20,000 bases of DNA from Psammoneis japonica (lineage: Eukaryota): the NCBI GenBank assembly GCA_008632985.1, contig QPGO01000151.1:176553-196552 (forward strand), in the 5' to 3' direction. The notes beneath the pieces were generated by a model. It was not told the origin of the DNA and made no database searches. It saw only the letters and a program-made list of their open reading frames with translations. The position numbers and the translations under genes are program-made. Shown here one piece after another: positions 319-20,000 of the stretch (its first letter is position 1; each line of letters begins with the position of its first letter).

Positions 319-359
319 TTTGGGCTGCAGCCCTTTTGGCAGCATGGCTGCAGCCCAAA
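319..359. repeat. Perfect 14-bp inverted repeat with 13-nt loop
   Basis: TTTGGGCTGCAGCC (319-332) and GGCTGCAGCCCAAA (346-359). Confidence 0.85.
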
Positions 360-746: not shown

Positions 747-1839
747 CAATGGCAGTGATTTTATGATTCAATGTGTTTTTGAGCAGAGTGGTGAATGGCA
801 AACACACTTCTGATTCAGACGTGTTCCAGCTCCAGGTGGGACCTCGTGCTGCTGAACTGTGACATCAATGGTTTTTTGGGTCACACCACATGTGGCGCAC
901 GCAGATGGCTGCATGTGACATGCTGCAAAATTCTTTCACACTCCCTGTTTTGCAAAGCCAAAGGCTTTCTATTTTCAACATTTGCAAGAGCAAAAATGCG
1001 CTGGGCACATTCTTCAATGTCTGCAGAACACACCCAGGCAAACTGTCAATGATGTGCTTCAAGTGTGAAGGAGGAGATGTGTTCGTAAAATTGCCTCTTT
1101 TTCTGTTGGTGATCATTTGCATTTTCATTGCTTGACAAATTTACTGTGGAGCTCGTGTGCAGAATTCTGCGAGCCAAATGTCGCACCGAGTCCCACCTGG
1201 GACTGGAGCCCATCTTCAACACAGTTTTGTGCCTTGTCCACCAAGACCACAGCCTCCTCCTTGCACTGTTCCAACTCCTCAACAAAGTTGACACAGATTC
1301 TTGTTAAAATGTGTTCGAGTTCTTAAAGAAGCACACATTCCTTCCTTCCCCCTCACAAGTTGACCGCCAAGCTGGCGCAGCAGCCAGCGCAGTTTTTGTT
1401 CCAGTGCCTCAGCAAGCACTGACATGAACTGAACAATGAGGATTCACCTTTTGAGTGATCTTGTCAATGAGTTCCTGATGTTGCACCATGAACTGCCTGT
1501 GACCGACATCCGAGGATTCAAAAGATTCCTGCTGATGCATCGACTGCACCTGAGCATCATGTTTTGCTTGCAAATCCATCGTCATGTTGCCAACAAAGGG
1601 TGCTTTGTTTGGTTGCATTTGAATGCCACCATCTTGCTTGCATTTGAGCATCAGCTGCAAAACAGTCCTCTCCCTTGATGAATGAACATCAAGACAGGTG
1701 GGTCCTGACACCAGCTCTTCATGAGCTCCGTGAGCCATCATGCTCTGGCGAGTCGACGCATGCACACACACTGATGACACTGCATCACACGATGGCACAG
1801 CTGAGATTGATGTGCTCTGTGAAAATTTCAATGTCGTGT

Positions 1840-2269
1840 CAACAGGAATCATTCGAAAATGTCGTGTGGGTCACAATTGATGTTTTGCATGAGTGAAAAC
1901 ACAAAATCGTGCAGAAATGCACACAAAGTCATGCGAGAGAGTGATTGGAGCTGACAACTTTTCGGGAACTGAATTGAAATGCTGTCTGATTGATGGTGTT
2001 GGCCTTCACTGTGTGAATCAAAATGCCATCAATCAGACGGCATTTCAATTGATTTCCCGAGAAGTTGACATTCACACATGGATGGATGGACAGACTGATG
2101 ACAATTGTTTTCAGTGCTCTCCTGCACAATTTTCACGTGATGACTCTCAGGACCCGAATGATTCCTGTTGCTGACAAGATGTTTCTATTTTGTTGCAGGC
2201 ACTCTGCAACAGAGAGCAGTTGTTCTCTTTGTGCTTGGTTCAGATTGCAATGGGAATCTTTCGAAAATG
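1840..2269. repeat. Nested foldback/MITE-like inverted-repeat structure
   Basis: Inner 46-bp arms 1955-2000/2022-2067; middle arms 1903-1914/2122-2133; perfect outer 16-bp arms CAACAGGAATCATTCG 1840-1855/2155-2170; diverged direct copy of the outer motif at 2248-2269. Confidence 0.8.
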
Positions 2270-2360
2270 ACCCGTGACGTAAAAAGCACAAAACAGCTGT
2301 GGACACCTGCAGAATCTACATGTTTTTGTGCTGAAACTGTTATGTTCACACAATTTGTGC

Positions 2361-2453: not shown

Positions 2454-3220
2454 CGCAAAGTTAAAATTCACTAAGGACAGACAGACAGACTTTTCAATAA
2501 TTATCTTGGTACTGTTCTACACATTTCTACGTAAATGACTCTACAGCGCGAAAGATTGCTATTGAGATGTTTCTGCTGCAAAAAGTCTGTCCATCGTGAG
2601 CAAGCGACAACTCATCAATCGATATTTTCAAGAACTTATAATATTTATGCTTATTAATTGCCGGAAATTCCCACCCAAATTTGTATTCATATCTTAATTT
2701 GTCAAATTGATACTCCTACCAATGCTGATTTACGTGGCCATCTAGTACTAATGTACGCAACGGCGATCACGCACATGTATTATGTGATATTACATCACGA
2801 TGGTTTCTTAATGAACGTAGAACTGAAAAAATGTTGACCACGTAGGTTCCTACGTGCTATGTACAGAAGATGTACTGCACAGTACCGGCATGCAACCCTG
2901 CCGCCAGCCTGACCTGCTTGCCATGCACGCTTCTCACAGTTCACCCCTCGCGAAAATTGCCACGCACACGCAAACCCACAGACACAATGCTGACAAAGCC
3001 GTTCGGATCCGGACGTTGAACGAGAGGAGAGTGTTTTGCCACGATAGATTCATAAACCAAGAACGACCAAGTCCCGGTTCCAGTTGCTCTTCTAACGCGA
3101 AGAACGACGCTCAACTGTTCTAAATCGATTCGTATTGACGTTGTATCAACCGACGAAAAGTTTGTTGCACACACGAACACTCGATAGATCGCCGAATTCA
3201 AATCTATAATAGTACACACC

Positions 3221-5167
3221 ATGGCACGCACGCACGGTCGCCTTCGTCGCCTGCTCCGACCCAAGTCTTCGCGAGAGATGGAGAAGGCACTCCGTTCTGT
3301 GGCAATCGATTCTGTTCCATCTGAAGAAAGCACTCTCCCAGAATCAGAAGTTTGTTCCACTTCCAGCACCGGAGGTCTTTCGCAAGCGGATTCAGACGAA
3401 GACCTCTTTGAGCTATCCACCACCAACGACCCTTATGCAGATGTCCGTGAACGCATGGAAGAATTGGCAGCAGAGGACAAGGCCATGTTTGCCAATCACG
3501 ACGCTACAAAAGAAGCAGAAGCGCATCACGCTGCAGAGCCTTCGATCCCGTCCTTTGCTGCGTACACAACCTATCTCGGTTACGCTGTGTTGATTATCTG
3601 CGGGCACATTCGTGACATTTGCGCTCGCCTTATTCGAACCGGCCGTTATCTTCGTCGGCATACGGACTTTCCCAGTGACGACCTGACCAAGTACGCGACT
3701 CTGCTCAAGAGCTGGGAGAACTTTTACACGAGGCGGCTCTATCACCGAATTCAGGACTGCTTTAACCGTCCCATTGCTTCGAGACCTGGTGCCCACATTC
3801 AAGTGCTGGAGCGTGTCTCTGCGGATGGAAACAAAACCATGGAGCTGTTGGGGCAGCTCGATAACCTTGAGACGGAGCAGCAGAGACGAGAGTACTCGGA
3901 GGGATCGCATTTTCATACAGTTTCTGAAGGTCGTGTGGCGAGGTCTTGCCTCAACTTGGGTAGTTACAACTACCTTGGTTTTGCCGACGACTGGGATATC
4001 ACTTGCCGAAACGACGTCATGGGCTCTCTCAAGCAACTCCCGGTTAGCACAGGCTCTAGCAGAATTGAATTCGGAACAACGGCCTTGCACCGCGAGGTGG
4101 AGGAACTGGTGGCTGGCTTTGTAGGAAAGGAGGATGCCATGGTACTCAATATGGGGTTCAACACGAATGCCACCACGATCCCGGCGCTTGTATCGAGGGG
4201 TGATTTGCTCATTTCGGACGCACTCAATCACACGAGCATTGTGAATGGTGCTCGCGCTTCGGGTGCGTCTATTCGTACGTTCCGCCACAATGACATGACT
4301 CACTTGGAAAAGATTCTCCGCGAAGCCATTGTCATGGGAATGCCCCGAACAAGACGTCCCTGGAACAAGATTCTTGTCATTGTGGAAGGAATATACTCCA
4401 TGGAGGGCGAATACTGTGACTTGAAGAATGTCGTTCGCATTTGCAAAAAGTACGGTGCCTACATTTACCTCGATGAAGCCCATTCGATTGGCGCCATGGG
4501 ACCAACTGGACGAGGCTGCGCTGAGTACACGGGAGTCAATCCGGATGACATTGATATCATGATGGGCACCTTTACAAAGAGCTTTGGTGGCATGGGCGGG
4601 TACATTGCCGGAAGCAAGGACGTGATTTCCTTTCTGAGGCGGAAATGTGCTGGTAGCTCATACCACAACTCGCTTAGTCCAGTGGTTTGTCAACAGATTA
4701 TCTCCAGCTTCAAGGTATGTGTCATGGTTCTGTGTTGTATGCGACTACTGTGATTATGATTTTCGCGTTGACTAACTAAATTTTATTATCTACGTTTTCA
4801 GGTCATTATGGGACAAGACGGTACCAATATCGGAAAGCAGAAGCTCCAGGCACTTCGCGATAACTCCAACTACTTTCGCATGCGCCTAACAGACATGGGC
4901 CTTCACGTTCTCGGCCACTATGACTCACCCATTATGCCCGTCATGTTGTACAACCCAACAAAGATTGCTGCGTTTTCCCGCGAGTGTCTCAAGCGAGGAC
5001 TTGCCGTGGTTGTCGTGGGTTTCCCTGCCGTTCCCATTCTCATGTCGCGGGCCAGGTTCTGCATCTCGGCTGGGCATACCCGAGAGGACTTGGACAGGGC
5101 TCTCCACGAGATTGATGAAATTGCAGATATCCTCAAACTGAGGTATGCTCGTTCTACGTTTGGCTGA
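3221..5167 (+). CDS. LCB2: Serine palmitoyltransferase catalytic subunit 2; exons 3221-4714 and 4802-5167, ~619 aa
   Basis: Motifs [48 protein letters not shown]-lysine [24 protein letters not shown]. Intron 4715-4801 (GTATGT..ACTAAC..CAG) joins FK|VIMG in frame. Confidence 0.96.
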
Positions 5168-5399
5168 GCTACACACCAAGTGCAATTCCACGGTCAGACA
5201 CGACTATGGTGCTCTACAATTCTTAATCTTTTATTGCCTGCAAGAGCTCGCTGTCTTGTGTAATTGTTTTATAATGAAAGCAGTTGTTTGTATCTCGTTA
5301 ACGCTCTGTCGTCTGATTACCGAATAACGAACGAACATACATGCTTAAAGAGGTACGCCTGATCTGAGTGAAAGAGAAGTCCTCAGGTGAGCTCTCATT

Positions 5400-5520
5400 C
5401 CTATTAGTCTCTACGCAGGCTTGCAGTTTGGTCAAGTGGTTGAGCACCACCACTATGCTAGGTAGACTGTAGACTGCTAGAGTAGTCTACCCTAGTCTAC
5501 TAGCTAGAAGTAGCTAGCGC
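5400..5520. repeat. TAG/CTA-rich low-complexity intergenic patch
   Basis: ...GCTAGGTAGACTGTAGACTGCTAGAGTAGTCTACCCTAGTCTACTAGCTAGAAGTAGCTAGC. Confidence 0.7.
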
Positions 5521-5787
5521 TCTTGACCGACAACTCCATCTTACTCTACCGTTAATGCCGGATGATGGTGGTGATGGGAGTGCACAGTGCGCGCGACGAA
5601 GAATGAACGACCACGCGACCACCGCCCGACACGTCAGTTTTTTTCGTTTGCTGGGCAAGCAAAATGTGAACAGCGGCTATGATATCGATTGGGGACGAAA
5701 TTGAAAATAAACGCATTTTTGTGCGGCATCGGTGCCTCAATCCTGTTGACTTTGCCTGACGATAGTTTTCAGATAGAGAGAATAGCC

Positions 5788-6416
5788 ATGCTGAACTACG
5801 CTCCAACACTTTTGCTTCTACTTGTCTCTCTCATCGGAGGGAGCAATGCATTCTTTGGTTCTGTGGGTGCAGGCGGAAAGCCTTCGGTTTCATCGCCTCA
5901 AGCCGATGAGGCCGTAGCGATTTACGGGGAGAAGTATCCGTTCGACCAGCCGGCGAAGGAGGGGAACTCACTTGCTAGTTTTGGCATGCCCAGCAAAAAA
6001 ACCTACGGACCAGAGGCGCGCCGTCGATTCACAGACAAGAGCGAAGCGGCAGTCCGTGCTACCTTTGCGGAGCTTGCCAAGAACTATGGCACCGACAATG
6101 CTCTGGAAATGGTGAAAGTCATGCCCACGTGCTTGGCTTTTAACAAGGACAACTTTGCACCTTCGCTAGCCAACTTTGGAGAAATCTTTGGTGAAGAAGA
6201 GGCGCAGCAAATGGTTCAACGCAATCCAGGTTTGCTGGCAGTAAAACCCGCGGATGCAGCCACATCCACTGAACAGACAATGGTATTTTCTTACATTGTG
6301 GGTGTGACACGTCCGGTAGGGGGGATTCTATTGGGTGCTTTGGCCATTGCCCTTTGTCGTTACCAGTCGAAGCGGTGACTGGAGTATCGCTTCGTTCCGT
6401 CATCTTTGGACAATAG
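5788..6416 (+). CDS. Putative plastid-targeted protein of unknown function with C-terminal TM helix; apparent 1-nt frameshift near 6354
   Basis: ATG 5788 gives hydrophobic signal peptide MLNYAPTLLLLLVSLIGGSNA followed by F (ASAFAP-like). As given, the ORF stops at 6378; adding one T to the TTT run yields ...ALAIALLSLPVEAVTGVSLRSVIFGQ* ending at 6416. Confidence 0.75.
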
Positions 6417-7125
6417 ACACAGACGACGCTCATGTGAAAGCCTATACTGCTCACGCAAGGCAAAACTTATAATTCGATAATTCCATAGGATTGAAGATAC
6501 CGGTTTTTGAAAAGGCAGTTGACTGCAGTTCTAGAGAGAGGAAATCTTCTTACCGGTATATTCTCTACTGGAAGCTTCAAAACATTGGAAGTTGTGATTG
6601 CGTGTAGGTAAGAGAGAGAGAGAGAGGAAATAAACAACACTATTACATGCCAGTGGTATGGTACTGTACCGTCCGTTTCAGCTCTCTCGCTCTCTCCACT
6701 GATCTTGTGAGAAGATGGAAGGGGATATTTCCTGCAACCTCAGATTCTGAATATTTTAATTTCTTTTCACATTTCATGTGTGTTAAATAGAAATATTTAT
6801 TACATAAATACCTTGTAGATTGGACAAAGTAGTTCTGTTACGAACTTATATACTATTATAGATGGAATAAGGATTAATATGGCAATTGGACATTAATATA
6901 GATATTCGTAGGCATAGGTGAACAAACCCTGCTCTGACGTTGTCTGAATTTTTTCGAAAAAAGAGTCGGGAACAAACACGGAACAACAAGATCGAATGAA
7001 AACAGCCGTGACACGAACGTCGTCAGCGCTGCTCATTCCACCCCAAAGAAATTCTCACTCCTCGCAACTCAGTGTACGAGTAGAGAAAAACTTGGCTGCT
7101 TTTCCTTTAAACATCACTATCGAGA

Positions 7126-8097
7126 ATGGCTTCGCATCTGCCAGAAGCAAAAAGCTGTTCATCGCAGAAGTTCAACGATATGCATGATAGCGAGTTGACC
7201 TCACCAACTGTTACTGATGCGGGGAGCGTCTCGGATGATGACGGGAGTGGGGGGTGGTTTGGAATCGGTGCCGACCTCAAGACCTTCGCCAGATCTATCA
7301 AAAGCTCCGTACCGAATGCCATTGATGGGATCGCAACGGCTATATCGAAATCCGCCATGGCAGTCGCAGCGGAGTTCAGTGAATTGGAAAGGGATGCTGA
7401 AATAGAAGCGAAGCGGTGGAGGGAGGAAAATTATGGGACGTCGCAGGATCAAGAGGCGGGCGTAACGTTACAGCTGCCTTGGGAGATACAACGTGGTGAT
7501 TCATTGGATACCTTGGTCGAAGACACGGTGCTCAAAATGAAGATTCTTAATCTTAGTCGTGATGAAAACATGTTTTTGAAGCCTTTCAGTGTTTCCGCCG
7601 CATCTGATGGCCGCACGACTTGTGGCAAGGCTGACTTTGTGCTTGACGAAGCAAGAATCGACCTCATCAGGCGTCTGTTAGCAATTGATGAAAGTCTTGC
7701 AACCGTGCACGCCAGACTCTCAGGTGAGAATTGTAACAAAACATGTCAGCAGTGATCAATTCTCTCCAATTATTTGGACCAACACTTTACCCTTGTTTCG
7801 TCCCGTACATCAGGCCGTAGCGATGTCAAGGAAGCTGTTTTCTGGAAAAACTATTTTCATCATTGCGAAAGACTTCGAAAAGAGCACCTTACCAAGAGAA
7901 GACCTAGCCAAGCAATCACATCGGGCTCCTCATTGGGATCCTTAACAGCCGTACGCAGCTGTGGTGAAGACGACGCCGCGTCGTTTGTTATAGCAAGCCC
8001 ACCTCAAAGTATGAACAGTGTTCTTTCCACTCACTCAGTTGGGGATATGGTGCTTGTTGGTGGTATGGAGGCACTTGACACACACGATGAAAAATAG
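7126..8097 (+). CDS. BSD-domain protein; exons 7126-7723 and 7814-8097
   Basis: Phase-1 intron 7724-7813 (GTGAGA..CAG) gives LLAIDESLATVHARLSG|RSDVKEAVFWKNYFHHC, with the BSD FWxNYF signature. Confidence 0.85.
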
Positions 8098-8358
8098 GAA
8101 GAATGGGAGAGTTCTCTCGAGGAGAATTCATACGAGTAGCAGTTAATCTCACTCTCTACTAGAGTGACGCCAAGATAAGAGTCTGATGTTTTTCCTACTT
8201 CTCGATTCTGCTTTTGCCGTAAACCTAGAGAGCAGCACTTAATCTCACTTGGAGAGAGTGGTGTCAAGATGAGGAACTCAAATTGTTTGAAATCAGTTGT
8301 TCTCGATCATGTGTTGCTCGTCGCGCCTGTGCAACCCACGTGAATTTCAGCAATTGTA

Positions 8359-8790
8359 TCCTTCGTTCGAGAGAGAAGAAAGACAAAGGCTATTATATCC
8401 GGTAGGTGCGATAGGCAACATTGGTAGGCATTACCAAGGAGCTTCGTTGCGGCCACATTAACAGTTCTTGGTCCCCGAGGAGTCGTCATTCCGTTGCGAA
8501 AACAGAAGCTAAGATACTGAGGCGAAGCTGTTTGGCGAGAGAAGGCCACTATTACCCTCAATGCAGTACAGTAATGTAGAGTATAAATCCTTCGTTCAAG
8601 AGAGAAGAGAGAGAAAGGCCATTATATCCGGTAGGTGCGATAGGCCACATTGGTAGGCATCACCAAGGAGCTTCGTAGCGGCGACAGTAACAGTTCTTGG
8701 TCCCCGAGGTCATTCGGTTGCGAAAACAGAAGCTGCTATAATGTTTGGCGAGAGAAAGTCACTATTATCCCGGATGCAGTAGAGTATAAA
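8359..8790. repeat. Diverged tandem duplication (8359-8587 and 8588-8790) downstream of the CCT gene
   Basis: Both units begin TCCTTCGTTC.AGAGAGAAGA, share ATTATATCCGGTAGGTGCGATAGGC and TAACAGTTCTTGGTCCCCGAGG, and end GTAGAGTATAAA. Confidence 0.92.
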
Positions 8791-8810
8791 GGTAACGAGG
8801 CGAAACTCAT

Positions 8811-10674
8811 TTATGTTAAACTCATTAGATCCCGCATGAGTAACTCGTCTTCCTTCTTAACAAAACGACCTTTTACTCGAAGTCGACTGTCCGCGAAATT
8901 CTTCCTCACGTCATATTTGACAGTCTTTGTCCAAACGCGATGATTTCTTTTAGCCAGGAAGCGCTCAATCCTAATTTTTCTGCTTTCAGGAGAGTATGCA
9001 CCAATCCACCCATCTGGGCGTTCTACTTCAAGCAGTCCATGAATATCCATTGATGTTCTCAAGTTGGGGTCGCTCATTGATCTTGGGCGGCCTAGGCCAG
9101 ATGCATTCTCCTTCCTCTCTTCTTCTTCAACTCTTTTATCCTGCTTTGCTTTTGCAGCCGCCTTCTTATCCTTCCGCTCCTGCTTCTCGCGTGCCTCCCT
9201 CTCTTTTCTTTCCCGCATGTTCTGCTCTCGCTTTTCTTTCTTCTCTCTCTTCTCCCTCTCCTTTTGTTCTTTCTTGGCGAGTTTCTCACGTCGACGCTCA
9301 GCTGCCAGTTCACTTTTAGTCTTTATCCTAGATTCGCTCTTTGATCTACCGTATTGCGCAAGGCTTGCCCCGATACCGCCCTCGCCTGGATGTGACGGGC
9401 TGCCGCCGGTTACGTTCAGACCCACCATGCCTCCATAAGGGTTTGCCCTTCTAGCTCTGACACATGGGTGATGCACCATCGCCCAAGAATCGGCGGTCGA
9501 CCCAACCACCATAACCATCACGCCCATCCTGTGACGACGGGGTTTCTCCCAAGAGACCACCAAACGCCAACGAGTTCGATCGAAAACGTTGTTGCTCTTC
9601 GAGAATGGTGGGAGACGGATCAATGTGTCCCGATCCAAAAGCTTGCGGCGGCAGCTTGAGGTACTCATCACTTTGGCTAGTAAAATCCCCATTGAACTCC
9701 AAATCCCCAATTCCGTCGTCTCCTTCATAAGCAGATGGTGAAACCATGTTGGGTTGAGCTTCTTCCACCGGATTGTGCTTCTGCTGCGTGACCTGCCCTG
9801 GATCTATTGGAATAGGATTTGAGTGGGTACTCTTTGAAGCAATCCCCAGATGTGACAATATATCTGCATCCGGTGCCCCAGGATGACTCGGCATGTCCAT
9901 ACCGGCGCAGAGATCGTCATCTACAGTCAGAAAATCCAGATCCAAATCATCCAACAAGTTAATGTCAGCTGAAGCGCGATTCAACAGCTTTCCACTCGTG
10001 ATCATGTTTTCGAGAGTGCTCTTGTCTCCCCGTTCATACTTGTCTAGAGCAGACTGTAGATCCTCGTCACCTGAAATAATGAGATCTTTGAGAATAGCCT
10101 TCTGGTGTTGGTCGATGAGTCCTGCGTCTTCCAGTTCCGCAGCAGACCGCAGTCGTCCAGAAATGCTCTGAGGAAACGAGAAACACAAAATGATATTTTA
10201 AGCACGAAATCAAGCAAAAGTTCATGACAACGAAAGCCGAAGATCTGAATTACTTACACCACTTCGCGCACGCTTTCCAAAATGTTGCGCTTCATAAGAA
10301 GACGGGGCGAAGGTCGGAGGAGTGTGCGACAACGGATCCATAATCCCACTGAGAAAAGCACTTCCAGAAGAACCGGCAGATCCAGATTGAAACTCGGGGT
10401 TGTTGGGTGTCGGTATCGGCTTCGAGGCTGGTGGTCGTGTCGGCATTGGCCTTCCAACAGGAATGGGCTCCGTGGTACTCACGGCCGTTTGAGTGGGACC
10501 CGATGTACTAATATTGCCATAACCTTCATCCTCGTTGTTCATCGCAGCAACCATATGCGCAACGGTCATGTCCACTCCAGACGACTCGTCAATGTTGAAC
10601 CCCAAGGAAGAGTACTCATCGTCGGTGTGCGAGCTGCCGAGGCGCTCTGCGGACCCTTTCAAATCAGCGCTCAT
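8811..10674 (-). CDS. CCT-domain (CONSTANS/CO-like/TOC1) protein; exon 1 10674-10258, exon 2 from 10167, apparent frameshift near 9445-9470
   Basis: C-terminal WIGAYSPESRKIRIERFLAKRNHRVWTKTVKYDVRKNFADSRLRVKGRFVK is a CCT motif, preceded by a K/E/R coiled coil. Intron 10168-10257 (GTAAGT..CAG) joins RARSG|SISGRLRSA. Confidence 0.88.
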
Positions 10675-11260
10675 CACTGAATTCTCTCTCTCGTGATGTC
10701 GCTTCGTGTCTCAACGGTACCGGTAGGCTTTCTGCTTTCTCCGAAATTACGTGATCAAAGATTGCTTTTCTGTGAATGCAATAGTGTGCAATCGAGATAG
10801 ATTGCGTTGTTCTTGTCAGTTCCAGTTATGATAATGCTATAGGCTTGCTCTACATACCGAGTGGGATTGATTCTTGAAGGGTTGATTGAGGGGGTCGACG
10901 CGGTCAACCATGAGCGTGTTGCCGGCTGTTCCGATCGATGAAAATACCACGCGGGATGCACCGATACCAGAGTTTTACGTGGCGTTCTACAGGGTTCAGA
11001 ATTTGATAGTGATTTGGTCCAATATGAATGAAATTTCATCAAAGTTCTGGGCCATAAATAAATCTAAATGTTCTGACTCCTCACTGAGTCACTGTTTTCT
11101 GATTTCGTTAAGTAAATATAACTTTTATTGCTTCATACAAATATATGAATAATGACATTTCCGAAATCACCTTTTCCCGCCAAAGCAACTCACAAAAGAT
11201 GCCAAAAAAACCAACGCAACATTATTATTATTTGAACATACAGTAGTGGCGAACTTGACC

Positions 11261-11781
11261 ATGTCTTTTCTTCTCAAGTCACCCTTGCTCAAGTCGCTGT
11301 TTCGGGTGCCTGCCCCACCGCGGCCTACCGTTCCATCCGGAAAACAGCGAATTTGTGTCGCGGGATATGGCACATCGCACAACACGGGAAGGGCTCAAAA
11401 AATTGCTTTGGAAATCTCGCTGCTCCATCCAGATCGTTTCGAGACTTGGTTTTACTTTTCCTCTTTTCATTATCATGACTTTTTGAAAGAAATCAAAAAG
11501 GAGATTCCAAAAGAGCAATTGACTAGCAAATCCACAATGGATTCGGAAGGAACCATGGTTGAACACCGCTCGTCGCCTTTTGTTTGGTTGGAGCGCTCGG
11601 ACGAGAAAAATGACAAGATTATCGACGCTATTGGAGGCGAGACAGATTTTGTGAATGGGTCAACAAGCAGTTCCCAAATGATGCATCGATCCAAAAGTTG
11701 GCAACACTCAATGAACCTCCGCTGACGGAACTGTTCTTTGACAATGCAACACCGGGTGGAACGTGGATGGAGACGAAATGA
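11261..11781 (+). CDS. Glutaredoxin/thioredoxin-like fold protein lacking CxxC; apparent 1-nt frameshift at ~11637
   Basis: RICVAGYGTSHNTGRA...HRSSPFVWLE...IGG, then in the -1 frame RDRFCEWVNKQFP...GGTWMETK* (stop 11779-11781). The cis-Pro-like SP and IGGxD motifs are typical of the Grx fold. Confidence 0.7.
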
Positions 11782-12232
11782 TTAGTTATGGATTACTGAC
11801 TCTCCAACAACCGGCAACTCGTTCGTATCGAGTATAAAGATGTAGAATTGTTGGTAGCCATATAAAGTAATAGAACTCTACCCAGTTAGGGAGGTTGTTA
11901 GAGAACAGCCAGCAGGTTCAACCGGAAAGTATTGTAGCTTAAGAGCAGCACATTGCAAGGCTCCTGGCACGACGAAACAAGAAAGGCACTGAAAACTTGA
12001 TGCGGCCTTCTGTGTTCCGACCATAAGGTGACATTCGACCCAACCACCGGATTGGTAAAGAAAAACAGTGCAGTATTATTAGGTACCTTGCAGCGATACG
12101 GAGCATAACTAACTTTGAAAGTCAAAATCGTTGTGCTAATTGTTACACAATGTGAATATTTGGGATCGGTAGCAAGTAAAGAATGAAAAGTGATGCTTTG
12201 GAACCTAAAGCAGCGCAGATGTACTACACTAT

Positions 12233-13523
12233 TTAGTCGTCCATCGGAAAGGCCTCTTCGTTCTCGATTTCATTCAAGTGCGGGTCAGACTCTTCTTCCA
12301 ATATCGTTGCACACCTACTAGCTCCCTCGACAAGGACACCCAGGGAGGCGCTGCGAGGTCTTCGCGAGTATGCTCGGCCTCCTTGATCGCTCTCTGATGT
12401 AAGGAGGGATTCGACAGTAGGATCATTTCGATTGCCGACAAAGTCATGCGGAACAAGAACTGATCTCCCTTGCTTGACCTTGAACGTCGAAGTTTCATCG
12501 CAGCTTTCTGCTCTCAAGCGGCGCTGCTTGGCCGCAACCCCAGAGAGCTCGACGAGCCCTCCTTGCACACGGTCATCTCGAGTGGCATTCAGGAGAGCTG
12601 TCATTTTATCCATATACGTTGAAGTGCTGTCTAGACTCTTTCCCAGCATCGACGGAACAACGGGCCCTCCAGGTGTAGCTTGACATTCAGTAGCAGCAGC
12701 AACTGCGCTTATTTTCCCGCTCATCAACTCAGAAGCGGAGGGCAGACTAGTACTAAACATAGATTCTCCAGTTGAGTCTTGAGGTTGTCTGCACGGTGGC
12801 GGCGGCATCGCTTTGGCAGACGAAGAACGAATGAGTCGGCCTGGAATAACAACACTAGTCGTTTCAGATGAATGCTTTTGTTTTGACAATGCCCGTCTCG
12901 TCTTTCCTCCGCCGGGTGAATGCTTTCCCCCTTCAAGTATGCTCCTTGCATGTCTTGCCATGAGTGAGCAGACGAGACATACATGTTGTTGTTGCTGCCG
13001 TCCAGAGGCTTTCTGCGCTTGCTTTTGTCTGCCTTGACGAGCTCTGATCTCTCGGCACTGATCATAATGAGCAAGAAGTTTTCTCGTTTGACAGCACCCT
13101 TGAAACTCCTTTGGGCATTCTGAGCTTCCCACAGCCTTACAGGTCTTGATATGCAAAAGGACAATTTTCGATTCGGCACAGCCTCTTACAGGACACCGAT
13201 AAGGGCTCTCGTTGCAACGCTACACCCGACGATACAGAGCCAGTAAGTGAGAATGGCATTAACGGAGAATACTCACAAAATAATTCGTAGAAGAAACTTA
13301 CCTGAGCATGCAATATTATGCACAGCGACGCCGCAGCCTTTTTAGCCTTGGATACAACCGCACCAACATCCGAAGAGCATGAAGGCGATTTCCTATCTAA
13401 AAGTCGTGGTGAAGTTGTCTCGTTCTCAGATCCCATTGGATCAGTTACGTTGTCATCGCTGATGTTTCTCGAACTAGCTTCACTCATTGGTCCCACGGCA
13501 TCACAAACAACAGGAGCTGTCAT
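12233..13523 (-). CDS. TAZ-type zinc-finger protein; exons 13523-13302 and 13219-12233
   Basis: Intron 13220-13301 (GTAAGT..TAG) gives ILHAQ|RCNESPYRCPVRGCAESKIVLLHIKTC...CPKEFQGCCQTRKLLAHYDQC...CLVC, i.e. three HxxxC-C-C Zn sites, then a low-complexity tail. Confidence 0.85.
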
Positions 13524-13952
13524 TGGGAGGACGTCCTTGTGGACTGCCTTCCACTTTTGTTATCCCAATGTATTTCAAATCCGAAAATCAATTTCTTTTC
13601 ATCGATTTTGTGGTTGTCGTTCCATCAATCAAATCGAATTCTTGCGTCTGGCGCGAGCAAAAGCAGTGGATGGAGATGGATGAATTCTGTTCGTTTGCTC
13701 CTCGCCAACCATCAGTCTTGCTTTGCGTTTTTCTCACTTGCGCACACAGAAATTGGTGGTGGATGTTGACGTCGCTTGTCGTAGAAAGGACACAGAGAAC
13801 CTCGTACGAAATGTGTGGCTACAGAGGATTTCGGTACAAACGCACGGCCGGTGAGTCGGTCGCGTGGCGCCAATCAAAATTCAATTATTAATGAACTTAT
13901 AAGATATATACTCTGGTTCAAGTTGGAAGATTGTCTGTGTGTTGTCGTGTCA

Positions 13953-14100
13953 GACTACGGTACTACTCCGTAGTATAAGTACTACTCTAGTAGTTGATTT
14001 CGGCGCGGGCACAAAACAGGACCATGCTCTCTCTAGCTAGAGTAGTAGCTACTACTCTCTCTAGAGTAGCTAGCTAGCTAGCTAGCTAGCAGTAGAGAGT
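13953..14100. repeat. TAG/CTA-rich patch with (CTAG)n microsatellite
   Basis: GACTACGGTACTACTCCGTAGTATAAGTACTACTCTAGTAG and GTAGCTAGCTAGCTAGCTAGCTAGC. Confidence 0.8.
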
Positions 14101-14175
14101 AAAGAAATCGAAAGCCACTCGTGCTGGAGGACAATGAGATTAAGAAGAACTATCGATCGATATAGCTGTTGCTTA

Positions 14176-15602
14176 CTATGGCTTCCAGAGAAAGCTATCA
14201 AACATTCGCTTTCCCATTTCAACGCCCAGAAAGAGAGCAGCGTTCGCTGGGAAAGCTCGAAGAAGTGTTGGCCCTAATCCGCTAAAAAGACCTGGCACAC
14301 CCCTTTCTCGCGCGATTTGCATCAACTTAGGAAAATAGCTACCGACAACCTTTGTGTCCCAGCTAGATTGCACATTTGTCTTTGGCACGTCAAACGGCAT
14401 GGCGACTGAAAACAACCCATAATGCAAATGAAACGGTGAGAGGACCCGTCAGTCTCGTCAATGTTGACTAGAAACGTCAACAGGCAAAATCTGTCTTACC
14501 TGTCCATCCAAACATACCGGCTAGCCCCCCACTTCACAGCGGCCACAATGTATTTCGAATCAGGGAAGAGAAAGCATTCAGTCTTGTTATCGTTTCGATA
14601 GCAACAATCAGCAGGTAGGGCCCTACATCGCCTCACCTTATAAAGAAATTCAATTCATCTGGCATAGATGGTGTGTACGTTCGGAAAAAGTATTTAGATA
14701 GCTCGTACCCACCAAAGAAAAAGGCATAGAAGGATCCATCACGCATCAATTGAGCATCAAAACCTACAAACATTGACTGGGGGGTCGAAAACACACTAAA
14801 CGATTCAGTGGATCATCTGCGCACGGCGAAGAGTTTCGTCGCATTTTCCGGACGTACCCTGATTCCTTGCTTCTTCAACATTTCTCTAATGATGTCATTG
14901 GATGATTTTGAACCAACAACTACCTGCGTCTTTGCCTTTATGGCGCGAGTGGTGAACGCAACTTATGTGAGTGATCGAGTTTTTCGTTGGAAGTAAAATT
15001 ATGTCGACCCTCAGGGACTGGTATCCTTACCTTCACAACCTCACTCGGCAACAAGACAGTTGCAGAGCAACAGCCAGTAAATGATCCCTATCGCGTATAC
15101 AGTGAGAAAGAAACCATGGTGACAAAGATATTAGCAACGCTGTACGAAAAACAAGCAGGCTGTTGACGGACTCGGCCACCCACCATGAAAAACGGCTTAA
15201 CGAGATCAGGTCGTCCACCTTGAATTCGTTCTTCTGGATCGTCGGGGAAAGCTCGTTTTAGCGCTTCATTCACTCCGAAGGCCATTGCATTCTCAAGAGC
15301 CATTCCCGCTGCCGTTGGGACCGACCCTTTCCAGAAAGCTGCTATACCCTAGTTGCGAAATCAAAGTAAACTGAGAAAAGAAAACAAGAAAAAATTCCCG
15401 CACACTAACACTCCTCACTTCATACCTCATTTTTGAATATGCTTGATGTGGTTGAAAGAACTCCAGGATATTCCGCAGGATTCGTCTGCATTCTAACCTT
15501 GATCGTGTCGAGAGGCTGACCAGTATAACAGCAAGTTATCGATCCTAACGTCGCCGAAAATACGTCCTTGCTCACTTCACGAGGGTCGGCAATGTCTCCC
15601 AT
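14176..15602 (-). CDS. Mitochondrial carrier (SLC25), probably amino-acid/ornithine/carnitine type; 7 exons: 15602-15426, 15348-15184, 15087-15031, 14935-14858, 14776-14637, 14531-14500, 14405-14176 (292 aa)
   Basis: Three Px[DE]xxK signatures (PLDTIKVRMQ, PSEVVKAKTQ, PFDVPKTNVQ), FWKG, LMRD and LLRAFPANAALF. Six GT-AG introns give an intact 879-nt frame. Confidence 0.92.
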
Positions 15603-16681
15603 GGTTGCTTGCGCTTTCCCTGCTAATATTTCGAACTAAGTTGGAAAGTGCGCTCTCTGCCGATGCCACAACAGAAGAGTTCAAGTGGCGCGCGGTTGAG
15701 TGGATTTGGAGAGATTTGAAGTGGTTTTTGTGAAAATCGTGTTGTGAGAAAAAAATTGCAGCCAGCAGCCAAAATCGGTCTTGAGACAGAGGCTGGTTGT
15801 GCCATTGCCCAGGCAGGTGCGAGATCTCAGAGATGCAAGTGGATGTCAAAGCGATGAGAGCTCTGCAAGAGCCACCCACAGCTCCATGGCCATGTTTAGA
15901 TGGGAAAATGCAAAACCTTGTCTTTCTGCCCTCAGTGTCTGAGCTGCCTGTCTGTGGGGCATGGCGGGCGGCAGCACCAAGACACACAACAGCAGCTTTC
16001 ACTGCGGCAGATGAAAAACACACTCCCGGCAACAGGCATGCAAAAAAAGACTTCTGCAGCAAGCCAAAAAGGGCAGCAAGCTTGAGCTCAGCTCTCAAAA
16101 TGTGAGGTGCAGATTGGCCCATTGAGAGTGGTGGGGGGGTGCTGCTGGTGTGTCACCTGCTTGTGCAGCACTTTGTCCGTGCTTTTTGCTTTGAGTTTCT
16201 TGGCTCTCCAGCCTCTTGTGTGTGAAATGTCACATGTCACAAGGCATCCATCACCCAGCTGTTTCATTGCAGCATTGTCTGCTCTCCAAATTTGCTGACA
16301 AACAAACTCCTTCTTTTGTTGCAACCACCATGACACTCAACAACTGTCACACCACAGTGGCGCGCAGCACACCAGCCAGCCAGACAACACAGCTGATCAT
16401 CAGCCAGCAAGCACACAAGCATGCACACACATCAACATGCATCAAAAACAACTTCATAATTTCATGTGCAGCTGACACCCCCCCTGGAGCATTTTTTCAG
16501 TTTGTCAAAGTTCTCTCTGTTGTGCTGCCAGAGTCTTCAATTTTGGAGCCAGCTCAAGATCTGGCTGCACAGAGACCACCAGCATGCCATTTGAGGTCAT
16601 GACTTGGCAGGAGTTGCAACAGCAACACACTTGTTTTTTTTGTTCTCATGTGTGCACCACTTAAAAAAAATGAGATCTGTT

Positions 16682-16860
16682 CATCTGGCGGGGCAATGAT
16701 CTGACATCGCATGTGCGCAACGTGCCAACAAATTTTTGATTTTAATTTGAACATTCTTGCATGCTGTGCAAGAAATCTTGGTTCTGATTTCAACATTTTT
16801 GGCATGTTGTGCAAGAAAACTCAAATGTGACAAGCACACGGATGACATTCCAAACATTTT
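16682..16860 (-). repeat. Dispersed repeat, copy B (partner of 547-746)
   Basis: Reverse complement aligns to 547-746 apart from a ~20 nt indel; differences are dominated by TG<->CA and CG<->TG/CA. Confidence 0.9.
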
Positions 16861-17350
16861 CAAGTGCAGCACTTGGTCGCCTTTCACCGTGTGACAAATT
16901 GCTTTCCGTTCACTCCTCTTTTCAGCATGAAACAAATTGCTTTCTGGTCACTCTGCTTTTCACCATGTGACAAACCACTTTCCATTCAATCCCCAATTCA
17001 CATCACTTGCAAACTCTGCTTTTCTTTTCTTTTAAGGCCAATTTTGTTCTGACATTCAAATGACATCCTGTCTCTAATCCAACTTGCATTGGTTCCAGAT
17101 GTGAGTTGATTCTTGGTTAATTTTGCTGTTGTTGTTGTGCACTGTTTGCCAGTGAGTGTTGCCATTCAGCTGCCTGTGCGTTCGTGCTGAGCTCCTTGGC
17201 CGCTGCTGTGGGTTGTTGTTTGCTCTGCCTTCTCCTGAACCCATTCAGGTTGAAGCACTGTTGTCCATGGCCTCTGCTGCTGGAGTCTCTTCCTCTCTTT
17301 TCTTGTGTCCATTGTTCCTCCCTGCTGCTTCCCCTTTGCTGTTGCTCCAA

Positions 17351-18502
17351 TCAGTTTTTGGAGCTGCCCATCCCTTCACACTGTTCTTTTTTTTTCCTCT
17401 TTCTTTTCTTTCCCCACGCACTCTCCAATTTCTTTGTCTGCAGGTGTTGTGCATCAACTCTGGCACACTCTGTTCTCTCCTCCACCACCACATTGTGCAG
17501 CTCATTCATTGTGCCTTTTGATTCCACTCTGGCTCCATTTTTGATTTCTCTTTTCTTCCTGTCCCTGGAATGTGCACTTTGGGGGCACGGGCTGTGTTGG
17601 CTCTTGCACCTCTTGTCCTCCTTGAATTGGGTTTCTGTCTCCACCATTGCCATCATCATCCAGCAGCAGTTGTTGCACATGAGCCTTGCAAAAGCCTCCA
17701 TGCTTGTCATCAGCCAATCACCAATGGCCTGGTTTTCCTCTGTCTCAAATTGTTCCATTCCAGCTGCCATAGAACAGAGCTGTTCTAAGAACTGGATGTG
17801 CACCGGTGGTGATGCCCTTTGCTTTTCAATGTCTGCTGCACTCTCTAGACCCCGTGTCTGGCCATGGCCAACCAATGACAAATGTGTGAGCAGCACTTTC
17901 CATCCCATTTGCATGCCACCTGCATCGCATGTGCCAATCGTCTTTTTCCAAAATGCCTCCTGTCTGTTGTTTCATCTCTGATTTAGTCTTTTCCTCACCT
18001 TCTCCTTGTTCAGCTCCCAGCAAGCTGTGCAGTCACTGTTGGCCACATTGAGGTGCTTGCAAACCTTTTTCTGCATTTTGCTGCCAAACACCAACTCAAC
18101 ATTGTCATGCACTACAAACTTGGTCTTTGGGTGCACTGCCATCACAACACAGTTGGTCATTTGACCATCCATGAACTTCCTCTTGGCTTCCTCTGAGCTG
18201 ACGACTAACATCCCTGCAATCTCCACATTTTGGGATCCCATCTCTGCCACATCATGGGTGCCAACTGTAACCAACAACACAGTCCGTGTCAGCGGCATGC
18301 CCGTGTCTGTCTCAGTGTTGCTCTTGCCGCAATGCACTGCCTGATGAATTGTTTCATGCTGACATGATTGCCCACCCATCTCCACAGTGTTGTGCACACA
18401 ATTTTTTTTCTTCCGCCTTGAATGGAGGCCAATTGTGCCTGCCAGCATGCCAATGGCCTGTCTTTTTTTCTGCTCCTCCTCTTTGAATGCCAAAATTTTC
18501 AA
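17351..18502 (-). pseudogene. Fossil protein-coding sequence, probably a TE-associated ORF
   Basis: ORFs 17972-18502 and 17351-17914 are in one frame, separated by a single TGA (R-*-N-N, plausibly CGA->TGA). Protein-like segments PKTKFVV..ELVFGSKMQKKVC..WELNKEKVRKRLNQR and TSMEAFARL..NN; no Tyr. Confidence 0.5.
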
Positions 18503-20000
18503 ATGGGTCAGTTCACAACATCAGCTCATGCATTGTGGCATTTCGTTTGAATGGCGGTTTTTGCCATTTGCAGGCTCACATTGCATGCACACTGTTGCAC
18601 ATTGCACGCTAAGAACAATGACACTGCCACTTTTTGCATGCCAAAATTTTCAAATGGAATGCCAATTTTTGTTGCTTAGCTCATGGTTTGCTTTCCATTC
18701 CCCTGTGCTCTCATCCGTTGCTTGTCATCCAGTCTTCGACCTCTGACCCATCATCCTTGCTTGTCTTGGCCCATTGTTCCTTGAATCTTGGAACAAGTGT
18801 TCCAGGGAAGTGTCCAACCCCCCGTGATGTCCCTCCATGGCCGCATGGACACCAGCACAGTGTGCCCTCAGTCCAATGAGTTTCTTTCATTTGCAAAAAA
18901 CACCAGGTCTCCGCTGACTGTCGGAGGCCACCAATCAGTTGCTGGCAAGGGTTCCAATCCCCTGTCATGCATTTGCAGATGAGCTGCATTCAATGAAGTT
19001 TGGCCATCCTCAATGTCAATTGGTTCCCATTGACGTGGTGGCAGAGCACACATGATTTTTGGGAATCTGCAAGTGTTGTCTCCATGCTTGCATGCTGCCA
19101 CAATGGCGGGAGGCAGATGACTCTGCTGGCACATGTGCTTCGCCACTTTCCTGTGGCTGAAACTGAGAGGCAAAGTTGCTTTGTCCAATTGCTCTTCACA
19201 ATGGACCCTGCTCCACCCCACAAACTCTTCCAAAATGTTGGGCATCCTCCATCTGTCAAAGTCCTGTCTGTTGAAGTCCAGCCATCCTGCAACAATGTGA
19301 CAATTGACATCTCAACAGCTGCAGTGCAGCCTGCTTTCGTCCAGCTCATGGTGTAAATTCCATGGGTGGAAATCTGCAAAGGCACTGTGCAATCACCCCA
19401 CGAGTGCAGCCATCCTGTGTTTCTGTGTTGAAGCAAACCTTGGATCACCCATGTCACTCCATCGCTCCTTGCATGCATCTTCAGCTGCACTTGTCTCTTG
19501 CAAAGCACGTGTTGCATGTTGCTGCATCTGTTTGTTCACTGTGTCCATTTTCAACAGGTTTTTCACATCAAATGTGAAAAGACAAAGTCCACAATGCTCT
19601 CTGTTGATGCCAGGTTACCCAGCTCATCCATTTGCAGGCAATGACAACAAAACCCCGGCAACGCACGCATGGTTTTTTCTGTGTTGCTGTTCTTTGTCAA
19701 CTTGCTCATGATTTGTCAGATGCATTCTCTCTTGCCATCCATTTCACAGTGTCCTGGATTTTGCCTTTGTTGCAAAAAGATGAAAAGGGGGGCATCAGTC
19801 ATGACTTTCACCAACACTCAAAATTTTTGTTTCCGGGCAGTTGACACATCCTTTGCCACAACATGAAATTTTAGTTTGGGGCAGTTGTCTCATCATCAGC
19901 CCAATGAAACTGTGCTGTTTCCTCAAACACCTTGATTGCAGCATCTTGTTGGTCCATCTTTTGTTGTGTGCAATGAAATGCTTTCACTTCTGCACATTTC

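What the first reader, a model, noticed from the sequence alone, without database searches (positions are those of the whole stretch)
15640..20000. Candidate repeat-targeted TpA-erasing hypermutation system (TA->TG/CA, an 'anti-RIP')
Seen: about 19 TA dinucleotides in ~4.36 kb, where a few hundred are expected from base composition, with TG/CA in large excess. TA is normal or enriched in the adjacent gene island and the switch is abrupt. ORFs in both flanks together contain only about five Tyr and are rich in C/H/Q/W/M. Known: 5mCpG deamination (diatoms methylate TE CpGs via DNMT5) gives CG->TG/CA but cannot remove TA; fungal RIP (CpA->TpA) creates TA. Inference: a separate process drives A:T->G:C transitions at TpA in repeat or heterochromatic DNA (for example TpA-context adenine deamination or modification, or biased repair). 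It would destroy Tyr codons, TAA/TAG stops, GTA splice donors, TATA/AATAAA signals and TA/TTAA transposon target sites. I am not aware of a described mechanism, but cannot check the literature.
Basis: partly seen in the sequence, partly recalled or inferred. Interest (0 to 1): 0.93.

Follow-up and report, generated by a model that had tools for sequence, protein, structure and literature searches.

The report
TA-erased repeat DNA in a diatom
Silent repeated DNA on both sides of a normal gene cluster in a diatom-like alga has lost nearly all of its TA and most of its CG dinucleotides to TG/CA, which looks like the TA-targeted hypermutation of foreign DNA reported in 2026 in an unrelated alga.

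Summary
Window 15640-20000 has 19 TA where 291 are expected (o/e 0.07), CG o/e 0.24 and TG/CA o/e 1.8-1.9. The left end, 1-2280, looks the same. The gene island between them has TA o/e 0.55 and CG o/e 0.89.

Both flanks are multi-copy repeats with no recognisable protein. DNA-run contigs at single-copy depth reproduce the TA-poor sequence.

Three results favour mutation over native composition:
- Pyrimidine-purine steps total 24.4-24.9% of dinucleotides in the flanks and 23.8% in the island. The gain in TG+CA (8.8 points) matches the loss of TA+CG (8.2 points).
- Two diverged copies inside the window differ by CA<->TG flips at 14 of 99 TG/CA sites, against 1.9 expected.
- Other genomic copies carry TA or CG where the window copy has CA.

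CpG decay by 5mC deamination explains only about half of the TG/CA excess.

The TpA->TpG/CpA part matches the hypermutation measured in Bigelowiella natans (bioRxiv 10.64898/2026.01.13.699255). I found no description of it in diatoms.

The enzyme, the direction at individual sites and current activity remain inferred. I read this as a new member of a barely known kind; interest 0.75.

The parts
15640..20000 (.). Right TA- and CG-erased block. It runs off the window end.
   Evidence: TA 19 observed against 291 expected; CG o/e 0.24; TG 1.79; CA 1.92. TpA/ApT is 0.07 and (CpA+TpG)/(ApC+GpT) is 2.04. X1 word depth is 355-704 over 16676-18676, against about 55-63 over the island.
1..2280 (.). Left TA- and CG-erased block. 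It runs off the window start.
   Evidence: TA is 0.53%, CG 2.11%, TG 11.67% and CA 10.62% of dinucleotides. TpA/ApT is 0.07. X1 word depth reaches 41,687 in bin 668-1334 and 7,348 in bin 2002-2668.
2500..15600 (.). Gene island with ordinary composition, used as the internal control.
   Evidence: TA is 4.41%, CG 5.48%, TG 6.82% and CA 7.03%. Genes include serine palmitoyltransferase (Aminotran_1_2, 2.8e-35), a CCT-motif gene, a TAZ finger below the Pfam cut-off and Mito_carr. Spliced contigs of run X2 cover it.
364..746 (+). Left copy of a repeat shared with the right block, made of two adjacent pieces (364-542 and 547-746).
   Evidence: blastn finds 74% identity to the reverse complement of 18494-18669 and 69.5% to the reverse complement of 16682-16860.
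16682..16860 (-). Right copy, piece B, of the shared repeat.
   Evidence: CA<->TG is the commonest adjacent double difference, 14 of 44.
18494..18669 (-). Right copy, piece A, of the shared repeat. In the right block it lies 1.6 kb from piece B.
   Evidence: 14 flips among 99 TG/CA sites against 1.87 expected.
817..878 (.). Core of a very high-copy element.
   Evidence: Bin 668-1334 has X1 word depth 41,687. Many contigs begin to fit at 816/818. Contig ends that run on past 878 carry CG and TA where the window has CA (tables 2, 7 and 8; window sequence).
1324..2186 (.). Longest TA-free run (862 nt). It still holds 20 CG.
   Evidence: runs; CG positions. TA erasure is more complete here than CG decay.
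15637..15897 (.). A 260-nt TA-free edge zone that keeps a near-normal CG density.
   Evidence: no TA here, but 9 CG between 15651 and 15852. The sparse-CG zone begins only after about 15860. The two depletions are therefore separable.
14176..15603 (-). Mitochondrial-carrier gene. Its start codon lies about 37 nt from the edge of the TA desert, so its upstream region lies in TA-erased DNA.
   Evidence: Mito_carr hits in three exon ORFs, with E from 1.3e-12 to 7e-6. ORF 15420-15635(-) contains the first Met.

Best explanation
The two flanks are old, multi-copy, protein-dead repeat DNA in the nuclear genome of a diatom or close relative. Two context-specific transition processes have rewritten them, and both end in TG/CA.

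(1) CpG->TpG/CpA by deamination of 5-methylcytosine. This is established biology, and diatom transposons are heavily CpG-methylated.

(2) TpA->TpG/CpA. This is a DNA-level A:T->G:C hypermutation that hits both strands equally, is confined to this silenced or foreign DNA, and stops within tens of bases of the neighbouring gene. It is the same signature that was measured directly in integrated viral DNA of Bigelowiella natans.

The most likely chemistry is enzymatic deamination of adenine that follows a T (A->inosine->G), by an ADAT2/TadA-like or other nucleic-acid deaminase recruited to silent chromatin.

Shown: the composition, the repeat status, the conserved pyrimidine-purine step total, the flips between copies and the strand symmetry. 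Inferred: the direction at each site, that an enzyme is responsible, which enzyme it is, and that it serves as a defence.
For: -: TA o/e 0.07, CG 0.24, TG/CA 1.8-1.9 in the flanks; island TA 0.55, CG 0.89.
- pyrimidine-purine steps total 24.92% and 24.35% of dinucleotides in the flanks and 23.75% in the island. TA+CG lost is 8.19 points and TG+CA gained is 8.80 points. G+C is unchanged (47.6% against 46.9%).
- applying TA->TG/CA (90%) and CG->TG/CA (77%) to island DNA reproduces the flank dinucleotide profile (r 0.978). It predicts TG = CA = 11.02% against 11.24% observed. CG decay alone gives 9.07% (r 0.862).
- in 426 aligned columns of two copies, 14 of 99 TG/CA sites are flipped to CA/TG where 1.87 are expected. 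With the short inverted repeat added, flips are 15 of 111 at TG/CA, while double-transition flips at the twelve dinucleotides other than TG, CA, TA and CG are 5 of 352.
- the flanks are multi-copy. A single-copy-depth contig reproduces 1146-1874 with 3 differences. Other copies read CGTCGTATG and CGTAGAT where the window reads CACCACATG and CGCAGAT.
- TA erasure occurs where CG survives (15637-15897; 1324-2186), so it is not a by-product of CpG decay.
- surviving TA are context-biased. None of 31 is in RTAY, against 161 of 578 in the island. 25 of 31 lie in TTA/TAA, against 223 of 578 (p = 5e-6). An agent that reads the sequence around the site would produce this.
- the B. natans preprint reports 230 of 231 mutations in the hypermutable regions as A->G or T->C, and all of these on TpA. 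Its TpA-poor coding sequences are enriched in transposase and reverse-transcriptase domains.
Against: - No outgroup or family consensus could be built, because no genome is held. Each flip could therefore descend from an ancestral CG rather than an ancestral TA. The case for TA as the source rests on mass balance and on a few bases of other copies.
- The ancestral composition of these repeats is unknown, and island DNA is only a stand-in for it.
- Copies differ by nearly as many transversions (52) as transitions (57). The elements are old, and the signature may come from a process that is now extinct.
- Some differences from TA-bearing copies are not simple TA->TG/CA changes. For example, a T/C difference outside a TpA, and TTAT aligned with TGGT (my reading, table 7).
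- The model leaves a GC-dinucleotide excess unexplained (7.17% observed against 5.94% predicted).
- All runs come from one sample and may be the data from which the window was assembled.
- Only 1 of 1531 windows from related diatom loci shows even a weak version of the signature.
Confidence: 0.62

Rival explanations
1. Passive, non-enzymatic bias. TpA sites in compact, unrepaired heterochromatin accumulate A:T->G:C changes through context-specific damage or error-prone repair. There is no dedicated editing system and no defence role.
For: The elements are old, at 25% divergence with many transversions, so there was a long time for change to accumulate. The signature stops where a transcribed gene starts, as it would if transcription-coupled repair set the limit.
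Against: About 10% of TA survive, against about 24% of CG at methylated sites. Other sites differ by about 13% per lineage. The per-site TpA rate must therefore exceed the methyl-CpG rate and be more than tenfold above background. The edge is sharp to within tens of bases, and a 260-nt zone has lost TA but kept CG. In B. natans the same signature is episodic and 1000-fold above background.
Confidence: 0.15
2. Native or selected composition. The repeat families were TA-poor (and CG-poor) when they inserted, for example through selection against TA-containing signals or target sites. Only CpG decay happened afterwards.
For: No intact family member could be recovered to show its TA content. All flips could in principle come from CG.
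Against: Stretches with very different copy number (word depth from about 58 to 41,687) share the same composition, and only about 380 nt is alike between the two flanks. CG loss alone would require an ancestor with about 10% CG dinucleotides and 0.4% TA. Other copies, including one in the spliced-contig run X2, carry TA next to or inside the shared element (table 7).
Confidence: 0.12
3. Thymine-side chemistry instead of adenine deamination. T in TpA is modified (for example hydroxylated by a JBP/TET-like enzyme) and then mispairs or is misrepaired to C. This gives the same TA->CA/TG outcome.
For: Strand symmetry (TG 495, CA 489) cannot separate A->G from T->C. From recall, not from any call: dinoflagellate DNA carries 5-hydroxymethyluracil preferentially at TpA and TpC.
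Against: There is no evidence for such a base or enzyme in this organism. The only paper on this signature argues for adenine deamination.
Confidence: 0.08
4. Sequencing, base-calling or assembly artefact at modified bases.
For: All three runs come from one sample and study, and their library type is not on record.
Against: Contigs of run X1, at word depth about 55-63, reproduce TA-poor stretches: 1146-1874 with 3 differences, and 15018-16323. The window differs from those contigs at scattered island sites, so they are not simply the same consensus. An artefact would not give old paralogues a 25% divergence with CA<->TG flips.
Confidence: 0.03

Closest known systems
TpA-restricted hypermutation of integrated giant-virus and virophage DNA in Bigelowiella natans (Mettrop et al., bioRxiv 10.64898/2026.01.13.699255; I read the abstract, Results and Discussion)
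   Same: TpA->TpG/CpA on both strands. Confined to sharply bounded domains of foreign or silent DNA. The long-term trace is TpA depletion with CpA+TpG enrichment, and it is found in transposon-like sequences.
   Different: The host is a different supergroup branch (stramenopile, not rhizarian). The depletion is far deeper (o/e 0.07, against Rho 0.45 for their viral region). It is combined with strong CpG decay, which that paper does not discuss ('CpG' occurs 0 times). The targets here are high-copy repeats of unknown origin. No rate has been measured here.
Fungal repeat-induced point mutation (RIP)
   Same: Transition hypermutation of repeated DNA with a dinucleotide context. It leaves domains with skewed composition and dead reading frames.
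   Different: The direction is opposite. RIP turns CpA into TpA and raises TpA/ApT, whereas here TpA/ApT is 0.07 and (CpA+TpG)/(ApC+GpT) is 2.04. G+C is unchanged rather than lowered.
CpG decay of methylated transposons (5mC deamination). In diatoms, CpG methylation of TEs is 84% in Thalassiosira rotula (PMC11842555, passages read) and depends on DNMT5a in Phaeodactylum (PMC9998398, passages read).
   Same: It explains the CG o/e of 0.24 and part of the TG/CA excess.
   Different: It cannot remove TA. It supplies only about half of the TG/CA gain. TA loss also occurs where CG is retained.
ADAR-type A-to-I hyper-editing of repeat-derived double-stranded RNA (from recall, and as summarised in the Discussion of the B. 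natans preprint)
   Same: It prefers a U/T before the edited A, and it acts on repeats.
   Different: It acts on RNA. To become heritable it would need reverse transcription, and that would leave strand-biased A->G. Here TG and CA are equal. From recall: ADARs are known only in animals.

Membership tests
B. natans-type TpA hypermutation of foreign DNA | [quoted passage not shown] | tested here: met
   TA o/e is 0.07 and TG/CA o/e is 1.8-1.9 over 4.4 kb and 2.3 kb. [quoted passage not shown]
B. natans-type TpA hypermutation of foreign DNA | Changes are A->G/T->C transitions at TpA only | tested here: inconclusive
   The pyrimidine-purine step total is conserved, the mass balance fits and CA<->TG flips occur. 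However, no outgroup polarises any site, and CG decay gives the same end products.
B. natans-type TpA hypermutation of foreign DNA | Confined to foreign DNA (viral or transposon) with sharp borders | tested here: inconclusive
   The borders are sharp and the DNA is multi-copy. Its origin is unknown: none of 87 ORFs reaches a Pfam cut-off, and no relatives were found.
B. natans-type TpA hypermutation of foreign DNA | Measured de novo rate about 1000-fold above the rest of the genome | not testable with these tools
   This needs mutation-accumulation lines or pedigrees of this organism.
Fungal RIP | CpA->TpA, giving high TpA/ApT and low (CpA+TpG)/(ApC+GpT) | tested here: not met
   TpA/ApT is 0.07 and (CpA+TpG)/(ApC+GpT) is 2.03-2.04 in the flanks, against 0.68 and 1.21 in the island.
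Methyl-CpG decay | CG depleted with a matching TG/CA gain and no effect on TA | tested here: not met
   CG o/e is 0.24 (met). But the TG+CA gain of 8.8 points exceeds the CG loss of 4.2 points, and TA falls from 4.41% to 0.44%. CpG decay is therefore present but is not the whole explanation.
RNA-level (ADAR-like) hyper-editing fixed through retrotransposition | Strand-asymmetric A->G along an element | tested here: not met
   TG is 495 and CA is 489 in the right flank. Counts in 400-nt bins differ by more than about 1.4-fold only in 17201-17600, where A is scarce (48 against 29).

The most novel reading that the evidence does not exclude
Diatoms carry a DNA-level editing defence that is directed at TpA and acts on silenced repeats. 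It is at least as mutagenic per site as methyl-CpG decay, and it runs until TA is essentially gone. It is homologous to the system just glimpsed in a chlorarachniophyte. That would make TpA editing an old genome-defence arm of the SAR eukaryotes. It would work in parallel with cytosine methylation and have a readable sequence preference (RTAY fastest, TTAA slowest).
Probability: 0.35. Interest if true: 0.88.

Novelty: new member of a known kind. Interest (0 to 1): 0.75.

Why it matters
A natural process that removes TA from silenced DNA would be a second heritable genome-defence chemistry in eukaryotes, beside cytosine methylation/deamination and fungal RIP. Its direction (A:T->G:C) runs against the usual mutation bias.

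Expected consequences:
- It destroys Tyr codons, two of the three stop codons (six-frame stops in the flanks are TGA 330, TAA 32 and TAG 15), TATA-type signals and TA/TTAA transposon targets.
- It hides decayed transposons from homology searches: none of 87 ORFs was recognisable.
- It leaves G+C unchanged, so ordinary composition scans miss it.

The only report of such a process that my searches found is one 2026 preprint on a chlorarachniophyte. A saturated example in a diatom suggests the process is wider and older than that. It also points to a group with transformable species and known methylation biology in which the enzyme could be sought. If an adenine deaminase that acts on double-stranded genomic DNA at TpA exists, it would also interest base-editing research.

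Tried and rejected
- Whole genome: none is held for this window. I could not do genome-wide window scans, family consensus building, or a search for deaminase, JBP/TET or DNMT4 genes.
- Protein identity of the flank DNA:
  - 20 ORFs, then 87 stop-to-stop ORFs of 50 aa or more, against Pfam. No flank ORF reached a cut-off. The best was DUF7117 at 23.2 bits against a cut-off of 28.
  - Word-indexed homologue search of ORF 17975-18520(-): 32 candidates, none significant. Only lengths near the query's were searched.
  - Full HMMER search of ORF 18871-19311(-): 1 hit among 1.84 billion representatives. It is a tandem-repeat protein, which I judge spurious.
  - Viral contigs with two ORFs: no relatives.
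- Rfam and tRNA scans of the window: nothing.
- Tandem repeats explain nothing.
- Other copies in public metagenomes: a Y/R-degenerate 32-mer of the high-copy element gave 0 matches.
- 80 loci (414 kb) around serine-palmitoyltransferase relatives. None shares DNA with the flanks. Only 1 of 1531 windows of 500 nt passes TA o/e below 0.25 with TG+CA above 1.5: L038:1-500, at a contig end, with TA 0.21 and CG 0.19. This is a weak lead, not support.
- More paralogy inside the window, using a transition-tolerant score: only the two known blocks exceed shuffled controls.
- A possible 11-base inverted repeat around the high-copy element (826-836 and 1190-1200) was not reported by the repeat finder. 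I dropped the miniature-transposon idea.
- Expression: no RNA holder is listed. Run X2, whose contigs are spliced, has no cover over 16009-20000 and almost none over 1-2668. I do not use this as evidence either way.
- Earlier findings of this scan: nothing on this genome and nothing alike.
- Literature: searches found only the B. natans preprint for TpA->TpG/CpA. I found no diatom paper.
Full report
**1. Observation**

Window 15640-20000 (4361 nt) has 19 TA where base composition predicts 291 (o/e 0.07). CG is 59 against 242 (0.24), TG is 495 (1.79) and CA is 489 (1.92). The left end of the window, 1 to about 2280, has the same composition: TA 0.53%, CG 2.11%, TG 11.67% and CA 10.62% of dinucleotides.

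The 13-kb island between the flanks has TA 4.41%, CG 5.48%, TG 6.82% and CA 7.03%. That gives TA o/e 0.55, which is moderately low rather than 'normal or enriched'. 1531 windows of 500 nt from related diatom loci have a median of 0.70.

TA-free runs reach 862, 677, 652 and 560 nt in the flanks, against at most 211 nt in the island. The right edge is abrupt: 17 TA between 15343 and 15637, then none until 15897.

The DNA is complex sequence, not a satellite. In ORFs of 100 aa or more, Tyr is 3 of 2220 aa in the flanks against 95 of 5148 aa in the island. C, H, Q, W and M are raised and R is halved. Six-frame stop codons in the flanks are TGA 330, TAA 32 and TAG 15. It should be extended to include CG depletion and the left flank.

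**2. Organism and setting**

No genome is held for this window. The island encodes:
- a serine palmitoyltransferase (Aminotran_1_2, 2.8e-35);
- a CCT-motif protein;
- a TAZ-finger match just below the Pfam cut-off (23.4 bits against 25);
- a weak mTERF match;
- a mitochondrial carrier on the minus strand.

The carrier's first Met lies about 37 nt from the edge of the TA desert.

The best named relatives of the palmitoyltransferase are diatoms: Cyclotella cryptica at 75% and Conticribra weissflogii at 72%. Triparma is at 73% over a shorter span and Ectocarpus at 66%. Unnamed marine hits reach 84-85%. Contigs of run X2 skip 87-90-nt GT..AG introns.

**3. What the flanks are**

Contigs of three runs from one sample were laid at 80% or more likeness.
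- Run X1 has word depth about 55-63 over the island. It has 41,687 in bin 668-1334, 1,823 in 1335-2001, 7,348 in 2002-2668 and 355-704 over 16676-18676. Much of the TA-poor DNA is therefore multi-copy.
- Some stretches are near single-copy depth at this likeness: about 58 in 16009-16675 and about 94 in 18677-19343.
- Places where X1 contigs differ from the window are mostly transitions: 604 transition places and 215 transversion places.
- A 731-nt X1 contig at depth 62.8 reproduces 1146-1874 with 3 differences. Another contig spans 15018-16323. Contigs of a DNA run therefore reproduce the TA-poor sequence.
- The runs share one sample and may be the assembly's own data, so this support is not fully independent.

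None of 87 ORFs reaches a Pfam cut-off. Homologue searches found nothing credible. There is no Rfam or tRNA match.

The two flanks share one repeat. Positions 364-542 and 547-746 match the reverse complement of 18494-18669 (74%) and of 16682-16860 (69.5%).

**4. Mutation or native composition**

Four lines of evidence favour mutation.

(a) Transitions cannot change the purine/pyrimidine pattern. The share of pyrimidine-purine steps is 24.92% and 24.35% in the flanks and 23.75% in the island. TA+CG lost is 8.19 points and TG+CA gained is 8.80 points. G+C is unchanged (47.6% against 46.9%).

(b) I applied TA->TG/CA (90%) and CG->TG/CA (77%) to island DNA. This reproduces the flank dinucleotide profile (r 0.978, RMSE 0.0058) and predicts TG = CA = 11.02% against 11.24% observed. 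CG decay alone gives 9.07% (r 0.862), and TA conversion alone gives r 0.856. The TA and CG levels are fitted. The TG/CA level is a genuine prediction. This assumes that island DNA is a fair stand-in for the ancestral repeats.

(c) In 426 aligned columns of the two copies, the commonest adjacent double difference is CA<->TG, at 14 of 44. Of 99 TG/CA sites in one copy, 14 are flipped in the other, where independent sites predict 1.87. With the short inverted repeat added, flips are 15 of 111 at TG/CA, while double-transition flips at the twelve dinucleotides other than TG, CA, TA and CG are 5 of 352. A flip needs an ancestral TA or CG that was resolved independently in each copy. Much of the rewriting therefore happened after the copies separated.

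(d) Contig ends that continue beyond the aligned core of the high-copy element read CGTCGTATG and CGTAGAT where the window reads CACCACATG and CGCAGAT. Another copy reads GTAAA where the window reads GTCAA (table 7, compared). Some copies therefore still hold TA and CG where this one has CA. These are only a few dozen bases, and some neighbouring differences are not simple TA->TG/CA changes.

**5. TA loss is separate from CpG decay**

The 260-nt zone 15637-15897 has no TA but keeps 9 CG. The stretch 1324-2186 has no TA but 20 CG.

Overall about 10% of the expected TA survive, against about 24% of CG. Ordinary sites differ by about 13% per lineage. By inference, the per-site TpA rate was at least that of methylated CpG and more than tenfold above background.

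**6. Properties of the process**

TG and CA are equal (495 and 489). Counts in 400-nt bins differ by more than about 1.4-fold only in 17201-17600, where A is scarce. Both DNA strands were hit alike, which argues against RNA-level or single-strand editing fixed through retrotransposition.

Surviving TA are context-biased.
- None of 31 is in RTAY, against 161 of 578 in the island. 16 of 31 are in YTAR, against 107 of 578 (p = 6e-5).
- By tetranucleotide, observed against the island-rate expectation: TTAA 7 of 14.7; CTAA+TTAG 8 of 20.3; GTAA+TTAC 7 of 30.5; ATAT 0 of 24.3; GTAC 0 of 21.3; ATAC+GTAT 0 of 36.
- 25 of 31 survivors lie in TTA/TAA, against 223 of 578 (p = 5e-6).

Either the agent disfavours a T before, or an A after, the TA. 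Or new TA arise preferentially in those contexts. The numbers are small.

**7. Comparison with what is known**

Fungal RIP runs in the opposite direction. TpA/ApT here is 0.07 and (CpA+TpG)/(ApC+GpT) is 2.04.

CpG decay is expected. TEs are 84% CpG-methylated in Thalassiosira rotula (PMC11842555, passages). DNMT5a loss removes methylation in Phaeodactylum (PMC9998398, abstract and passages). But CpG decay cannot remove TA.

The close match is a 2026 preprint on Bigelowiella natans (10.64898/2026.01.13.699255; I read the abstract, Results and Discussion).
- In mutation-accumulation lines, 231 of 302 nuclear point mutations fell in two integrated viral regions.
- 230 of those 231 were A->G or T->C, and all of these lay on TpA.
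- The rates were about 6e-7 per site per generation, and only some lines were affected.
- TpA-poor, CpA+TpG-rich windows clustered, and TpA-poor coding sequences were enriched in DDE transposase and reverse-transcriptase domains.
- The authors propose an ADAT2-like adenine deaminase acting on DNA.

That paper mentions neither diatoms nor CpG. Five full-text searches found no other description of this signature and none in diatoms. A 2025 diatom TE preprint has no occurrence of 'dinucleotide', 'hypermutation' or 'deamination'. Diatoms do carry DNMT4, a relative of the fungal RIP factor RID, of unknown function (PMC9998398). That is a lead only.

**8. Verdict**

The sequence feature is real and extreme. 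I read it as repeat DNA rewritten by CpG decay plus a TpA->TpG/CpA hypermutation of the B. natans type, here run almost to completion in a stramenopile (confidence about 0.6).

The enzyme is inferred. Adenine deamination at TpA is the most likely chemistry, and thymine modification is an alternative that these data cannot separate from it. Native composition (about 0.12), passive bias in heterochromatin (about 0.15) and artefact (about 0.03) remain open.

It is no longer without precedent, so I class the finding as a new member of a barely known kind. Section 'decisive next steps' lists the tests that would settle it. None could be run here for lack of the genome.

Noticed in passing
window 817-878 (bin 668-1334): A short element has X1 word depth of about 41,700 against about 60 for single-copy DNA, so it has hundreds of copies. 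Many contigs start to fit exactly at 816/818. A version carrying TA and CG occurs in the spliced-contig run X2 and in the tiny run X3. An 11-base inverted match (826-836 and 1190-1200) hints at terminal repeats, but the repeat finder did not report it.
   Followed up: partly
window 15604-15900: The upstream region of the mitochondrial-carrier gene (first Met at about 15601-15603, minus strand) lies inside TA-erased DNA. It has no TA at all for 260 nt but keeps its CG. The gene's promoter must therefore work without any TA-containing signal.
   Followed up: partly
window flanks 1-2280 and 15640-20000: The GC dinucleotide is in excess (7.17% observed against 5.94% predicted by the two-process model; o/e 1.34 in the right flank). 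AA/TT is also somewhat high, and GA/TC is low. The simple model does not explain these.
   Followed up: no
L038:1-550: A metagenome contig from a related diatom (palmitoyltransferase 76% identical) ends in about 550 nt with TA o/e 0.17-0.27, CG 0.12-0.35 and TG+CA 1.4-1.7. This stretch lies about 1.9 kb upstream of the part of its palmitoyltransferase gene that matches the query. It shares no DNA with the window's flanks.
   Followed up: partly
window 8358-8786: A direct duplication of about 225 nt lies inside the gene island (123-nt core at 93% identity, with flanking pieces at 84-86%), next to the CCT-motif gene.
   Followed up: no
window 16882-16995: Three tandem 38-nt units lie inside the TA-poor block. 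At one column the three units read CG, TG and CA, which shows CpG decay caught in all three states.
   Followed up: partly
window 2868-15400 (island): The window differs from the X1 and X2 contigs at scattered sites, for example 10 differences in 2372 nt. This suggests a second haplotype or strain in the sample.
   Followed up: no
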